Assembly: GCF_026210795.1 (NCBI RefSeq)
Contig: NC_089436.1
Span: forward strand, 2,542,001-2,606,000
DNA length: 64,000 nucleotides
Direction: 5' to 3'
Source of the DNA: Rhizophagus irregularis
Taxonomy: Eukaryota
Positions within the stretch are counted from its first letter, which is position 1; every line of letters begins with the position of its first letter. The notes beneath the pieces are model-generated. The model was not told where the DNA came from and did not search any database. It saw nothing but the letters and a program-made list of their open reading frames with translations. Shown piece by piece: positions 17,971 to 43,890 of the stretch. The position numbers and the translations under genes were made by a program.

Positions 17971-20079
17971 TTATGAATATTCAATATCATAAACATCAAT
18001 GTTTAATTGATTCAATAAATTAGTTGCTTTCTCATTATCTTGTAAAGCAGCCTTCATTAACCATCTAATTCCCTCATATTCGTCCTTTGGAATATTACAT
18101 TTTCCTTTATAATATATATCTCCTAAATTAAATTGTGCGGTAGGATTATTTCCTTCACCAGCTGCTTTTTTGAGATATTCCAAAAATATTTGTCGATTAT
18201 TTTCTTCTTCAAGTTTATTTAATAAAGTAAAAGCGTAACGTAGTTGAGCGTCAGAATTTCCTTCATCTGCAGCTTCTTTAAATAATTCTTTGCCTTCTTC
18301 TCGTTCTTTAATACCATCAAGATATCCTTCCCACAAATAACGACCTTTCCAATATTTTGCTGTTGTATTATTATTTTTCGCATGAAAGTCGAAACACTCC
18401 CATGCTTTTTGATGTTTTTCAGCTTTAAAAGCTTTTATACCTTCTTCTAATGAAATTACTGGTTTAAAAATAACAGGACTAATAACTTCATCCGGTAATT
18501 CTAAATCAGCATCAGCATTACTAATATACTTTGACGAATCTAGGGATTTATCGCGAAGTATATCTGTTGGATTCATACGAATAGAATTATGTAGTTCTTC
18601 TAACATATCTAATAATTTCATAAAAGAGATACGTTCTTGTGGATTTTGCTTCCAGGCTATGAATATAAAAAATTAAAGAATAAACATTAAAATCCTCCTC
18701 AAAATATTAATAATAATAACTTATTTATTATTATAAAAAAAAAAAGAATACTTACTATCATTTATAATTTTTTTGATTTTTTGATTTTCAGGAGTTGAAA
18801 TTTCGAATGTAATTCTTTCTCTATGGCCTTTAATAACATGTTTCTTAATTTTATCTATTTCCCAACCTTGATATGGAATTTTTTCAAAAGTAAGTTCCCA
18901 AAGTAACATGCCAAAACTAAAAATTTCACATTGAATTGTATATCGAGAATTGGTTAATTTCTCAGGAGCTGAACAATGAACTATATTGTCTGCCTTAGTT
19001 GGATCCATTAAATATGAAGTAGTGATTCCATCAGAATCGTAACGAGCCAACTCAAAATTATAAATTTTAGGTTCTAAAGTTTCTGTCATTAAAATATTAT
19101 TACATCCCAAGTCATGATGCAAAATACCAGCACATTGTAAAAATATGAGGCCACGACAGATTTCAAGAGCAATTCGGATCTTATAATGAAATGGTATATC
19201 TTTTTGTTCATAAAGCTGCCTCAAAGATCCACGTTCAGCCCATTCAAAAACCATAACATTACGATTTTCAATTGTTGACATACCATAAAATTTAAGAATA
19301 TGTTTACATTCAGACGATTTCATTAAAATTTCATGAATTTTTTGTGTTCTTGAACACGTTTTCATTTTTTCTTCGTCATTTGAAATGTATTTACAAGCTA
19401 CCTCTAATCCTTTATAAGTTTTCTTAATTATAAAATTAGGATCACATCCACGTTTGTCAGTAGATTTTACAGATATTAAGTCTTTTGAGTCAATCTTATT
19501 TACGTTATATGAAACATCTGAATGGTTTCTCATATGTTTCACCGCATCATAAATAAAGTCAATTTTGTTGTTAACTTCGTTGTTATTTTCAAGAATATCG
19601 TTATGCATTTTTTTAATATAATTGCTCATTTCGTCCAGATCATCCTTTAGCGCTTCTTCTTCAATTTTTCTTTGTTCTTCACTAGCAACTGCCATAGTAA
19701 AATGTAAATCCTTCATTGCAACATCATAATCATTTGTAAGTTTTTGAAATTTATTTTTAACAAAATCTGCTTGCGTATACTTTTTTAAACCACGAATATT
19801 TGAAATTTCCGCAGCAAATTTTTCAATTTCTTCTAAAACATATATGAATCTGTTAAACGCTTTATAATAAACCTCATCATTAAATATATCTACATTTTTT
19901 TGTTTCCTACGTTGTAATGTATCGATAGCGTTCTCAGTTAATTTCACTCGGTTTACTAGAGCTTCGCAAATATTTTTGTTATATTCTGCCGTTTCATAAA
20001 TTTTTACAATTTTAATAATTAAATCTGTAGCCTTGTCAATTAAGGGTATATACGGGGCAAAAATTCCAACGGATTCCAT
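17971..20079 (-). CDS. A1: MLKL-like N-terminal helical (4HB/HeLo-like) domain + coiled-coil brace + pseudokinase + Sel1-like repeats (~669 aa)
   Basis: complement(18756-20079, 17971-18656), intron GTAAGT...ATAG. N-terminus PYIPLI..A..LI.KI..IYETAEYNKNICEALVNRV. Kinase fold has VACK, no GxGxxG, HHDLGCNN, YNFE for DFG, and APE. C-terminus has Sel1 motifs (AKYWKGRYL, AQLRYA, AQFNLGDIYYKG). Confidence 0.85.
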
Positions 20080-20849
20080 TACGAAATAATAACGATAAAT
20101 TGTTTTTTAAAGAAAGAAAAAGATAATTGATAAATTTTTAATTTTTATCTTCAAGCAGATATTTTATATATATATATATTTTTTTTTTGCACGATATTAT
20201 TATATGAGAGAAATAAAAAATCGATTACTTTCTTTTTTAAGACATTTATCAAAGGTTATTATAACATGCATTGGAATATTTTTTCCGGTTATAATTATAA
20301 TTTTTTTTGCCCAATTTCCTTTTCTATATATTTTCTTAACGGTTACCTATTTTATATTTTCTTTAACAATTTCCTTTTCTATTTCTTTGAAGAATTCCTT
20401 TTTTTGGAATTTGATTATTACACAAAAAATTCCGTAAAAAAATTTGATTGTGTTTGGATAAAATTGAATGTTCTCAAAAAATTGATACGCGGTTTCACAG
20501 TTACAAATTACTTAATTACTTTCATGTATTGGAAAACGTACTCCGGTCATAATCAACCTTCTTGCATATTACTAAGAAGTACTAAACGCCGTTGTACATT
20601 GTTGTTACTTTGTTAGAGCTTTCAATTTTGTCCACAGAGTCCACAGATCAAAAAATATGAAACGTGGAAATTCCTTTTATAGTTTAAGTTTAAAATCACA
20701 AATCAAAATAGTAAATTTTATGAGCCCTAATTTAGAATAATGGATCGGTACATATTATACCAAAAATATCAGTTAAAAAAAAAAAAAAAAATCTGCACGG
20801 TTAAGTAGCGTATAAAAAGAGGTACTATATCTAAAGAATTGAAACGAAA

Positions 20850-40498: not shown

Positions 40499-41752
40499 GT
40501 TATTAGTTATATATTAATGACTTAATAAAAGATATTTTGTGCTTGATAAATCAATTATTAAATTGTTGTCATTCTTCTTATTGTGTAAATGAATTTTGAT
40601 GTATTTTTATTCTTAGTATATTAATTAATAAATAAGAACACTACTTTTCTTAAAAATTAAGATTATGAACCTAAATTGAATATGAATTTACTAACATTTC
40701 TAAAAATATAACTTCATTTTTGAGGACTTTTAAACAATAATTACAGTCAATTAATTCTAATCGATAAAAATTATCATTATTGGATCATACAAATGAGGCG
40801 AATCTAATAAGCTAAATTTATTATAATTGGGTCGTGCTAATATTAACGGTAACATAAAATTATTAACGATTGATTAGACTTAGGAGCGTTCTTCTCAAGC
40901 TTTTTTTTCAATGTGATTGACTAGTGATTCAATCACTACGATCAATTTAAAAAAAAATTCATTTTCTTCATACTATACCACAAACTAGCGATCTGCAAAC
41001 AAAAGACGCACCACCTCCAGCAAGTCATTATTTTGGATACTACGAGTTGGTGAACCCTACAAACTCATAATGTGAACTTCATAAAGAAAATAATAACAAT
41101 TTTATGTAAATTTAAGGTAATACAATCTTTATTTCTTATAAAATTATTGCCGTGACTTTTTTAGCTAGGACTGTTTTTTTTCCTTTGCAATTTTTTTGTA
41201 AAATACTATTCAGATTCGTCAGCTGCGCAGCTGAGGTCATACATAATACAATAATACAATAATACAATACTAAGACAATACGTGTTCACTTTTCTGTCAT
41301 TTTGTTACATTTCATAAAAAAAGAGTCTAACTTCATATAATTTATCGTTATGCATTCAGGAATCCTTGATTCCGAAAGTTATTAGATGATGAAAATGGCA
41401 CTGAATAGTGAATACAATCGGAAAACATTTTCCAGTGTGAAAGGATTTAAGTAAATGAACCGCAGATCATTTCATTTTTGGTATTGTAACAAAGTATAAG
41501 CAAATAGAACATTCTATTAATTCCATTATTCTATTTATTCCATTTAAGGTAAGGAACTGAATGTAAAAGGATTTCAAAAAAAATTGTTTGATGTAGATAG
41601 ATGAGATATAAAAAACGGAGAAAATTTTCCAATGTGTAACGGAAAAATTAAACAAAGTTCTGTAATAAGCCTTATAAATCAGGAGAAATTTATCATTTAA
41701 ATTTTTTTATTTTTAATAATAAAAAAAAAAAATAATAACCATTCATATTATA

Positions 41753-43890
41753 ATGGATGAGGTTACCATTAAAATAGCCGGAGCCACTGGAGAAGCTATT
41801 GGCCCATATCTACCCTTAATTAAAGTAGCTATAGATTTAATTATTAAAATTATAGACATTTATGAAACGGCAGAATATAATAAAAATATTTGCGAGACTT
41901 TAGTGAACAGAGTGAAGTTAACCGAGACTGCTATTAATACATTACAACGGAGAAAACAAAAAAATGAGGATAAACTTCGTGACGAAGGATATTATAAAGC
42001 TTTTAACAGATTTATTTATGTTTTAACAGAAATTAAAGAATTTGCTGCGGAGATTACAAATATCCATGGTTTTAGAAAATATACAAGGGCATATTTTGTT
42101 AAAGAAAATTTTCATAAACTTACAAATGATTATGATATTGCAATGAAAGATTTGCATTTTACTATAGCAATTGCTAACGAAGAACAGAGAAAAATTGACG
42201 AAGAAGCTTTAAAGGAAGATCTGGCGGAAATGGCAAAATATCTTGAAAAAATGCATAATGATATCCTCGAGAATAAAAATAAAGTAAACATTATTCATGA
42301 TATGGTAAAACATATGAAGAAACATTTAGATGATGACAAACCTTTACGTGATGTAGTAAATAAGATTGACTCAAAAGATTTAACATCCCCTGCACGAGGG
42401 AAACTTAATGACAAACGTGGTAAAGACCCTCATTTTATAATTAGGAAAATTTATAAAGGACAAGAAGTTGCTTGTAAATTTACTGAGGAAGAAATTGAAA
42501 TTAGTCCAAAAACACAAAGGCTTCTTGAAATCTTAGTGAAATTATCTGAATGCAAACATATTCTCAAATTTTATGGTATTTCAAAAATTGAAAATGTTAA
42601 TGTTATGGTTTTTGAATGGGCTGAACGTAGAACTCTGAGACAACTTTATTTAAAAAAGAATGTCCCCTGGAATTATAAGATTCGAATTGCTCTTGAAACT
42701 TGCCGTGGCCTTATATTTCTACAAGAGGCTGATATTTTGCATCATGACTTGAAATGTGAAAACATCTTAATAACGGAAAGTTTAGAACCTAAAATTTACA
42801 AATTTGCATTGGCACGTTATTCTGATAGCTCTTCATTACCAATAGATTTAGCAGAAGGAGATATATTCCCTTGGTTAGCTCCTGAAAAATTAGAAGGTTC
42901 TCGATACACAACCCAATGTGAAATTTTTAGTTTTGGTATGTTACTTTGGGAGCTTGCTTTTGAAAAAATTCCATATCAAGGTTGGGAAACAGACAAAATC
43001 AAGAATCATGTTACTAAAGGTGGTAGAGAAAGAATTATCTTTGGGATATCTCCTAAAACCTATCAAGAAGAATATAAAAAAATTATAAATGACAGTAAGT
43101 ATTTATTTATTTATCACTTCTACATTATAATATATTCTACATAAAATACACAAAAAATTATATATTGTTAATTTAATAATTAATTATACTTATAGTTTGG
43201 AAACAAAATCCTCATGAGCGTATTTCTTTTATGAAGTCCTTGGACATGCTAGAAGAATTATATAATTCCGTTCGTTATATGTTTGACGACAATCCATCAG
43301 GCATACTACCTGATAAATTGGATTTAGGTGGATCAAAAGAAACAAGCGATGCTGATTTAGAATTACCGGATAACATCATAAGTCCTATAAGGCCAGTAAT
43401 CTCAATAGAAGAAGGCATACAAGCTTTTCAAGATAAAGATCATCAAAAAGCATGGGAATGTTTTGATTTTCATGCAATAAATAAGAATACGACAGCAAAA
43501 TATTGGAAAGGTCGTTATTTATGGGACGGACTTCTTGATGATATTAAAGGACGCGAAGAAGAAGGCAAAGAATTACTTAAAGAAGCAGCAGATGAAGGAA
43601 ACCATGACGCCCAATTACGTTATGCTTTTACTTTAATAAATATTCTTGATGAAAAAGACAACCAACAAACATTTTTGAAATATATCAAAAAAGCCGCCAA
43701 TGAGGGAAATAATTCCATTGCACAATTTAATTTGGGCGATATATACTATAAAGGAAAATGTAATGTTCCAAAGGACGAATATGAGGGAATTAAATGGTTA
43801 ATAAAGGCTGCTTTACAAGATAATTCTAGAGCAACCAAATTCTTGAATAAAATAGATATAAATGTTTATGATATTGACAAATGTTCATGA
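41753..43890 (+). CDS. A3: MLKL-like domain + pseudokinase + Sel1-like repeats (~678 aa)
   Basis: Exons 41753-43094 and 43196-43890; VACK, HHDLKCEN, YKFA at the DFG position; same intron as A1/A2. Confidence 0.85.

What the first reader, a model, noticed from the sequence alone, without database searches (positions are those of the whole stretch)
17971..43890. Repeated head-to-head MLKL-like pseudokinase / tandem-kinase gene pairs: candidate fungal necroptosis-like module
Seen: the same two-gene unit occurs twice, A1<-->B1 (ATGs 20079/20850) and A2<-->B2 (37168/37977), with ~0.8-kb divergent spacers, plus the extra copies A3 and A4. A proteins are helical N-domain + brace + pseudokinase + Sel1. 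B proteins are degenerate kinase + intact kinase. Known: animal MLKL (4-helix bundle + brace + pseudokinase) kills cells after phosphorylation by the TKL kinase RIPK3; plant MLKLs and cereal tandem kinase-pseudokinase proteins act in immunity; paired immune genes are often head-to-head. Inference: B is the activating or sensor kinase and A the membrane-targeting executioner of a co-regulated cell-death or non-self defence pathway. I know of no description of such a pair in early-diverging fungi.
Basis: partly seen in the sequence, partly recalled or inferred. Interest (0 to 1): 0.95.

Follow-up and report, generated by a model that had tools for sequence, protein, structure and literature searches.

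The report
Fungal MLKL-like genes beside partner kinases
A mycorrhizal fungus carries a gene cluster in which look-alikes of the animal cell-killing protein MLKL sit head-to-head with double-kinase genes, and related fungi have annotated proteins that fuse a kinase to the same MLKL-like protein, so the kinases likely switch on a predicted, still untested, necroptosis-like defence.

Summary
The window is Rhizophagus irregularis (exact protein matches). A1, A2 and A3 (669-678 aa) are intact genes for a 4-helix bundle + brace + pseudokinase + Sel1 protein. The N-domain model matches MLKL best (Z 14.1), and the family profile aligns colinearly with mouse MLKL (E 5e-53). B1 and B2 (653/650 aa; degenerate + intact TKL kinase) lie head-to-head with A1 and A2 across 770 and 808 bp. 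A2, B2 and A3 are transcribed and spliced. Correction: the copy at 30.1-32.6 kb is not an A gene but a kinase-pseudokinase fusion (C), conserved in R. clarus. For coupling: A-B neighbours recur in R. diaphanus and other strains (by accession order), and kinase-MLKL fusions occur in Diversispora, Gigaspora and Acaulospora. Against strict pairs: B genes outnumber A genes, R. clarus has C beside A1, co-phylogeny is unresolved, the fused kinases are not B orthologues, B is no RIPK3 orthologue, alleles are nearly invariant, and this fungus has about 2,500 kinases. MLKL-Sel1 proteins in Glomeromycotina were already noted in print; I found no report of the kinase linkage. Killing and phosphorylation are untested. 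New variant of a known kind.

The parts
17971..20079 (-). A1: MLKL-like gene (4HB + brace + pseudokinase + Sel1), exons 20079-18756 and 18656-17971, 669 aa
   Evidence: identical to P0091; not checked with RNA reads
20080..20849 (.). divergent spacer A1/B1, 770 bp; two copies of a 16-bp upstream motif (20272-20287, 20530-20545)
20850..23368 (+). B1: tandem TKL kinase, degenerate K1 (res. 50-314) + intact K2 (362-629), 9 exons, 653 aa, basic N-terminus
   Evidence: model from GT-AG sites and likeness to B2, not checked with RNA reads
30138..32586 (-). C: intact-looking B-K1-type kinase (50-314) fused to an A-type pseudokinase (327-597); no 4HB, no Sel1; 6 exons, 627 aa
   Evidence: 81% identical to R. 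clarus P0054 over 612 aa
35042..37168 (-). A2: MLKL-like gene, exons 37168-35836 and 35733-35042, 674 aa
   Evidence: identical to P0005; intron and transcription seen in polyA reads
37169..37976 (.). divergent spacer A2/B2, 808 bp; motif copies at 37340-37355 and 37672-37687; no RNA depth at 37506-37839
37977..40498 (+). B2: tandem TKL kinase, degenerate K1 (55-317) + intact K2 (349-618), 9 exons, 650 aa
   Evidence: identical to P0105; 7 of 8 introns listed as joints in RNA reads (4 joints were not shown)
41753..43890 (+). A3: MLKL-like gene without a head-to-head B, exons 41753-43094 and 43196-43890, 678 aa; motif copies upstream at 41419-41434 and 41616-41631
   Evidence: identical to P0001
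41807..42319 (+). A3 four-helix bundle (res. 19-133) and brace helix (139-189)
   Evidence: AlphaFold2 model pLDDT 84, pTM 0.75; best matches are MLKL N-terminal domains
43396..43878 (+). A3 Sel1-like repeat domain (res. about 515-675)
   Evidence: Pfam Sel1; Z 13-15 to Sel1-repeat structures
62512..64000 (-). A5: fourth full-type A copy, 5' part beyond the window end
   Evidence: (P0016, 678 aa)

Best explanation
This is a local gene array of an MLKL-like pseudokinase family (A) interleaved with TKL kinase genes (B, C), and it likely works as a kinase-switched, membrane-attacking cell-death or defence module. Shown: A has the MLKL layout (4HB, brace, pseudokinase without the Mg-binding Asp) plus a Sel1 tail; B has a degenerate and an intact kinase domain; A2, B2 and A3 are transcribed. 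Inferred from animal MLKL: the pseudokinase and brace hold the 4HB inactive; the intact kinase domain of a neighbouring B (or of C) phosphorylates the Ser/Thr-rich segment after the xFE motif of A; the freed 4HB oligomerises and damages the membrane, sealing off or killing a hyphal sector. The fast-evolving degenerate K1 of B and the Sel1 repeats of A would be the input (sensor or docking) parts. The coupling is probably family-to-family within a birth-and-death array, not strict one-to-one pairing.
For: Fold: N-domain model pLDDT 84; best of 48,161 chains is human MLKL NTD (Z 14.1, rmsd 3.0, 140 aligned), mouse MLKL 12.8, AtMLKL3 11.4; the first 6 Foldseek rows are MLKL NTD (E 2e-3 to 2e-2). 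Sequence: a 45-sequence profile hits full-length mouse MLKL first, in one stretch from 4HB through pseudokinase (E 5e-53). Pseudokinase state is family-wide: 0 of 65 readable kinase-like domains behind an N-domain keep the DFG Asp. Ser/Thr residues lie 8-13 positions after the Phe of the xFE motif in A1-A3, where the aligned MLKL activation loop lies. Linkage: two head-to-head units here with homologous spacers (1 of 200 shuffles reached the score); consecutive accessions put A next to a B-type gene in R. diaphanus twice (RGB31472/3, RGB31483/4) and in three other R. irregularis records. Fusions: of the best 150 N-domain relatives, 15 have over 100 aa before the N-domain and 9 of these 15 carry a kinase there; five that I looked up are from Diversispora (3), Gigaspora and Acaulospora, two with tandem kinases; P0048 joins 3 N-domains, a pseudokinase and a B-K2-related kinase; C joins a B-K1-type kinase to an A-type pseudokinase and is conserved in R. 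clarus. Purifying selection: dN/dS 0.24-0.40 among A, 0.50 for B1/B2 (K1 0.51, K2 0.38).
Against: No killing, membrane binding or phosphorylation was tested. Helical bundles score high by shape alone: HHM reaches Z 12.5 and talin R13 10.9; Pfam MLKL_N stays below its cut-off for A1-A3; a 5-sequence N-domain profile found no PDB chain at E 10. Residues 1-140 have net charge about 0. Pairing is loose: A3 is alone, B7-B10 have no assigned A, and in R. clarus the A1 orthologue's accession neighbour is C. Quartet tests give different best trees for A and B; each rejects the other's best tree marginally (p-AU 0.050, 0.047) and a third tree fits both. The kinases fused in Diversisporales do not fall in the B K1 or K2 clades (FastTree). 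The spacer homology is mostly in the A-proximal half and is shared with the upstream DNA of A3. Alleles from other strains differ by only 0-17 of about 600-680 residues, unlike many non-self sensors (recalled). R. irregularis has 2,533 kinase genes (PMC10234402, passage), so kinase neighbours and fusions, including gene-calling merges, are cheap; I had no genome to measure the chance rate.
Confidence: 0.45

Rival explanations
1. The layout is a by-product of local expansion: one ancestral A-B neighbourhood in a kinase-rich region was copied a few times, and A and B do not work together. A may still be an MLKL-like effector with another trigger.
For: About 2,500 kinases in the genome; all A-B adjacencies seen belong to one array in two or three close Rhizophagus species and are thus not independent; unpaired A3 and B7-B10; no clear co-phylogeny; fused kinases elsewhere are other subfamilies.
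Against: Kinases are the only recurrent domain in front of the N-domain (9 of 15 extended proteins) in three other genera; C and P0048 join B-type kinases to A-type pseudokinases; 0.8-kb head-to-head spacing is kept in two units whose B genes are only 55% identical.
Confidence: 0.3
2. B restrains A or serves as bait: A is toxic unless held or phosphorylated by its neighbour, and loss or modification of B (for example of the degenerate K1 by a microbial effector) releases it, as in guard or toxin-antidote pairs.
For: Tight linkage with shared spacer; K1 is degenerate in B1/B2 and evolves faster than K2; K1 is intact in B9 and C, so its decay is recent and repeated.
Against: A3 is transcribed without a head-to-head partner; K2 keeps all catalytic motifs; in the animal precedent phosphorylation activates (PMC11476962, passages).
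Confidence: 0.12
3. A is a non-lethal scaffold: the helical bundle is a protein-interaction domain and A, B and C form a signalling module (stress, symbiosis or development) without membrane damage.
For: Near-tied fold match to HHM (Z 12.5); net neutral N-domain; steady transcription at similar low depth in two runs of one study; near-invariant alleles.
Against: Colinear sequence match to MLKL across 4HB, brace and pseudokinase; N-terminal domains of distant invertebrate MLKLs kill cells (PMC11476962, passages); large family size (536 clusters at 50% identity) fits defence genes.
Confidence: 0.13

Closest known systems
Animal MLKL with RIPK3 (necroptosis)
   Same: 4HB + brace + TKL-type pseudokinase in the same order and spacing; DFG replaced by xFE; Ser/Thr in the activation segment; an intact TKL kinase is the candidate activator.
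   Different: A has a C-terminal Sel1 domain and keeps the catalytic-loop Asp (HHD); the family is hugely expanded; B is a tandem kinase without a RHIM-like core and RIPK3 is not among its 60 best PDB matches; genes are clustered or fused; orthology to MLKL not tested.
Glomeromycotina MLKL-family homologues with Sel1 (TCDB 1.A.105; PMC8778642, passages seen)
   Same: Very likely the same proteins as A: MLKL-like, Sel1 repeats, found only in Glomeromycotina among early-diverging fungi.
   Different: The passages give three sentences and a table row, with no structure, catalytic analysis, gene context, partner kinase or fusion. Supplements were not read.
Fungal HeLo/HELL effectors (HET-S, HELLP) and HELL-kinase fusions (PMC12881547, PMC10197012, passages seen)
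   Same: 4HB-related membrane-targeting domain; small gene clusters of trigger and executioner; some HELL domains are joined to kinase or pseudokinase domains.
   Different: Known fungal cases are switched on by NLR amyloid templating; no NLR or amyloid motif was seen here, and the neighbour is a kinase.
Plant MLKLs and the wheat R3NLR/R3AK NLR-MLKL pair (bioRxiv 10.64898/2026.08.07.743466, abstract and section 9 seen)
   Same: A genetically linked sensor plus an MLKL whose 4HB executes death; AtMLKL3 is a fold match (Z 11.4).
   Different: The partner is an NLR, not a tandem kinase; plant 4HB-kinase fusions arose repeatedly, which warns that the fungal layout may be convergent too.
Cereal tandem kinase proteins (e.g. 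WTK3; search listing and abstract start only)
   Same: Two kinase domains, one degenerate, in a linked immune-like pair (B; C is kinase-pseudokinase).
   Different: Cereal TKPs signal through NLR helpers; no homology test was made beyond the shared kinase fold.

Membership tests
MLKL family (A) | N-terminal four-helix bundle of MLKL type | tested here: met
   Model pLDDT 84; top match MLKL NTD Z 14.1, rmsd 3.0, 140 aligned; Foldseek top 6 rows MLKL; Pfam MLKL_N below cut-off for A1-A3 but above it in relatives such as P0132, P0152, P0267
MLKL family (A) | brace helices between bundle and kinase-like domain | tested here: met
   Helices 139-189; profile aligns without a break to MLKL 10-466
MLKL family (A) | pseudokinase lacking catalytic motifs | tested here: met
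   No Gly loop, no alphaC Glu, DFG to NFE/KFA; 0 of 65 family domains keep the DFG Asp; HHD kept; inactivity is predicted, not assayed
MLKL family (A) | common descent of the pseudokinase with animal MLKL | tested here: inconclusive
   MLKL pseudokinase chains score 133-145 bits and BRAF 134-142 against the A profile; no tree with animal MLKL was built
MLKL family (A) | 4HB oligomerises and permeabilises membranes | not testable with these tools
   needs expression or liposome assays
RIPK3-MLKL necroptosis module (A+B) | partner kinase has intact catalytic motifs | tested here: met
   B K2 and C K1 keep Gly loop, Lys, Glu, HxD, DFG
RIPK3-MLKL necroptosis module (A+B) | kinase is a RIPK with a RHIM | tested here: not met
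   No [IV]Q[IVL]G core (pattern recalled) in A, B or C; B2 best PDB matches are CTR1, BRAF, BTK; B is a tandem kinase
RIPK3-MLKL necroptosis module (A+B) | kinase phosphorylates the pseudokinase activation loop and triggers death | not testable with these tools
   Ser/Thr acceptors are present; activity needs bench tests
Head-to-head sensor/executor pair | divergent, tightly linked genes kept together across loci and species | tested here: inconclusive
   2 units in the window; adjacency by accession order in R. diaphanus and other strains, orientation unknown; A3 unpaired; R. clarus has C beside A1
Head-to-head sensor/executor pair | congruent phylogeny of partners | tested here: inconclusive
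   Four assumed pairs; best trees differ, one topology is rejected by neither
Fungal HeLo/NLR amyloid pathway | NLR trigger with amyloid motif next to the effector | tested here: inconclusive
   No NLR domain among 19 window ORFs scanned; the rest of the genome was not available

The most novel reading that the evidence does not exclude
Arbuscular mycorrhizal fungi have a true kinase-to-MLKL necroptosis pathway, the first in fungi: an expanded family of MLKL-Sel1 executioners is switched on by dedicated TKL kinases that are encoded head-to-head (Rhizophagus) or fused in front of the executioner (Diversisporales). It would give a job to part of the unexplained TKL/Sel1 expansion of these fungi and could place the kinase-MLKL logic before the split of animals and fungi.
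Probability: 0.3. Interest if true: 0.88.

Novelty: new variant of a known kind. Interest (0 to 1): 0.62.

Why it matters
Characterised fungal 4HB killers are switched on by NLRs and amyloids. A full MLKL layout tied to its own kinases would be the closest fungal parallel to animal necroptosis, in aseptate symbionts of most land plants whose non-self and antimicrobial defences are little known. It also makes a standing puzzle testable: why these fungi hold thousands of TKL kinases and Sel1 proteins. The array offers ready reagents: separate A and B genes, a natural kinase-pseudokinase fusion (C) and kinase-MLKL fusions from other genera.

Tried and rejected
No whole genome is held for the window, so genome-wide pair counts and the chance rate of kinase neighbours could not be computed. 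The metagenome scan gave 1 locus of 1,072 bp among 119 pattern matches, with no context. Complex prediction of B2 (48-622) with the A2 pseudokinase (196-476) gave no verdict (0.20 and 0.09 against a mark of 0.34; alignments not used, controls not folded): no evidence either way. No indexed RNA holder was listed; two polyA raw-read runs of the same species label were laid instead; many reads come from paralogues (92% likeness allowed) and the library looks unstranded, so depth is no measure of co-regulation. A1, B1 and C were not examined with RNA reads. The full-length A3 model was poor (pLDDT 57.5, pTM 0.34) and was replaced by an N-domain model. HeLo was not among the listed fold matches; RPW8-type NRG1 CC-R scored Z 8.1. 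The first tree is the quick one; the careful search did not finish. The first AU test failed on a file error and was rerun. The motif GGTTTCACAG is not above chance (28 of 100 shuffles). NCBIfam gave only generic kinase hits below cut-off. Earlier scan findings: none. Two papers were not held and not seen: PMC6997932 (pseudokinase evolution; I recall it describing R. irregularis TKL pseudokinase expansions, which may include the A domain) and PMC4790977 (HELL domain). Rejected: reading the 30-31 kb stretch as a broken A copy (it is an intact fusion with a R. clarus orthologue); the 425-aa public model of B2 (P0023) as the full product (RNA joints continue through both kinase domains).

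
Full report
Observation. The window is 28% GC, intron-bearing DNA. Exon models give six intact genes in 17971-43890: A1 (-, 669 aa), B1 (+, 653 aa), C (-, 627 aa), A2 (-, 674 aa), B2 (+, 650 aa), A3 (+, 678 aa). A fourth A copy (A5) is cut by the window end at 62512-64000. 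A1, A2, A3 and B2 equal public Rhizophagus irregularis proteins exactly. A1/B1 and A2/B2 are head-to-head, 770 and 808 bp apart. A translated search with ten family proteins found no further remnant in the window apart from a Sel1 gene. PolyA reads from two runs of one study cover A2, B2 and A3 at low depth, show both A introns and 7 of 8 B2 introns among the joints listed, and leave the middle of the A2/B2 spacer empty. A1, B1 and C were not checked this way.

What A is. Pfam gives MLKL_N (below cut-off), kinase-like and Sel1. A model of A3 1-190 from a 60-sequence alignment (pLDDT 84) shows four helices and a long brace. Its best match among 48,161 chains is the human MLKL N-domain (Z 14.1), then mouse MLKL 12.8, HHM 12.5, AtMLKL3 11.4 and talin 10.9; Foldseek ranks MLKL chains first, at E 2e-3 or weaker. 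The ESM Atlas returns MLKL_N, MCAfunc and RPW8-clan clusters. A 45-sequence full-length profile finds mouse MLKL first in the PDB, colinear over residues 10-466 (E 5e-53). For the kinase part alone MLKL and BRAF score alike, so descent is open. The domain lacks Gly loop, alphaC Glu and the DFG Asp; none of 65 readable family domains keeps that Asp. The N-domain family is large (536 clusters at 50% identity); in the best 150 the commonest kinase-bearing layout is N-pseudokinase-Sel1 (35, plus 5 with a split domain; 56 are N only, many probably fragments). Members I looked up come from Ambispora, Entrophospora, Funneliformis, Rhizophagus, Diversispora, Gigaspora and Acaulospora (10 looked up) and Glomus.

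What B and C are. B has two TKL domains; K2 is intact, K1 degenerate in B1 and B2 but intact in the paralogue B9. Closest solved kinases are CTR1, BRAF and BTK; there is no RHIM-like core. C joins an intact K1-type kinase to an A-type pseudokinase and has an 81% identical orthologue and a second paralogue in R. clarus. All genes show purifying selection; B, and K1 most, evolves faster than A. B and C start with basic segments (net +5 to +13 in 40 residues), which could be membrane or nuclear targeting (inference).

Is the pairing real? Accession order stands in for gene order outside the window and gives no orientation. R. diaphanus: B 31472, A 31473, B 31475, B 31476, then A5 31483, B 31484/5. 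Other R. irregularis records repeat the first block. R. clarus: A5 016, C 020, A1 021, C-like 024, so A1 sits by C there. Glomus cerebriforme has an A ten accessions from a B-like fragment. These are one array in close species, not independent events. B genes found (8 types) outnumber A genes (5-7). Trees of four assumed pairs are unresolved. The two spacers are homologous, mostly on the A side. A 16-bp motif occurs six times in the window at up to 2 mismatches, twice upstream of each of A1, A2 and A3 (1.4 expected; the pattern was drawn from five of these sites, so the figure is optimistic). Independent support comes from fusions: 9 of the 15 relatives with a long N-terminal extension have a kinase there, among them kinase-MLKL_N-pseudokinase(-Sel1) and tandem-kinase-MLKL_N proteins of Diversisporales. 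These kinases are of the same broad group but outside the B clades, and each is a single predicted record, so merged gene calls are possible. With 2,533 kinases in R. irregularis chance adjacency is a serious rival that I could not quantify.

Mechanism. Most likely (0.45): B K2 or C K1 phosphorylates the activation segment of A, the brace releases the bundle, and A oligomers damage the membrane, as local defence in an aseptate mycelium. Anatomy, transcription, selection, linkage and fusions are shown; phosphorylation, binding, oligomers, death and the trigger are inferred. My odds for the parts: A is MLKL-like in build 0.9, its bundle is lytic 0.6, B or C regulates A 0.55. Rivals: no coupling (0.30), B as restraint or bait (0.12), non-lethal scaffold (0.13).

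Literature. Nine full-text searches. PMC8778642 (passages) reports MLKL-family homologues with Sel1 only in Glomeromycotina. PMC12881547 (passages) notes fungal HELL-kinase/pseudokinase proteins and two- or three-gene death clusters. PMC11476962 (passages) names a Basidiobolus MLKL and shows killing by invertebrate N-domains. bioRxiv 10.64898/2026.08.07.743466 (abstract, section 9) shows a wheat NLR-MLKL pair and repeated origins of 4HB-kinase fusions. PMC10197012, PMC9119436, PMC9815663, PMC10234402, PMC7490403 and PMC10211241 were seen as passages and do not describe this locus in those passages. The search for MLKL with 'mycorrhizal fung' found 8 papers, 7 listed, none on a kinase partner. 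The library lacks most subscription papers, two relevant papers were not held, and no supplements were read, so absence from print is not proven.

Verdict. Real, intact and well-supported as an MLKL-like family with a recurrent tie to TKL kinases; the strict executioner-activator pair is a plausible, testable hypothesis, not a result. New variant of a known kind, interest 0.62.

Noticed in passing
window 45976-47589 (-): Intact 537-codon frame for a NAL1-like trypsin-type serine protease with His, Asp and Ser motifs, 2 kb downstream of A3; Atlas neighbours are plant NAL1, cnidarian and bacterial proteins (score 0.95-0.97). A protease beside an MLKL-like gene recalls protease-activated death effectors; conservation of the neighbourhood was not tested.
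   Followed up: partly
window 47907-49874 (-): Sel1-repeat gene with about 16 near-identical 108-bp repeats (Pfam E 1e-175), a candidate variable sensor next to the array.
   Followed up: no
window 20272, 20530, 37340, 37672, 41419, 41616: 16-bp motif TGGAAWATKTWYTCCG, two copies upstream of each A gene in the same orientation relative to A; near-palindromic core, candidate transcription-factor site.
   Followed up: partly
window 7744-11357 (+): Five consecutive frames of a multi-exon gene with an acidic repeat stretch and no convincing Pfam match; looks transposon-derived (recalled impression, untested).
   Followed up: no
window 14448-16332, 4300-5900, 6900-7660, 13387-13960: Several tandem-repeat tracts and dispersed repeats.
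   Followed up: no
proteins P0240, P0272, P0274: N-domain relatives joined to a MACPF-like domain (P0240, below cut-off) or carrying an HMG box (P0272, P0274), showing wide domain shuffling in this family.
   Followed up: no
window 55228-55650 (+): Weak OTU-like protease match (E 0.015) inside a region with inverted repeats at 54524-56778.
   Followed up: no
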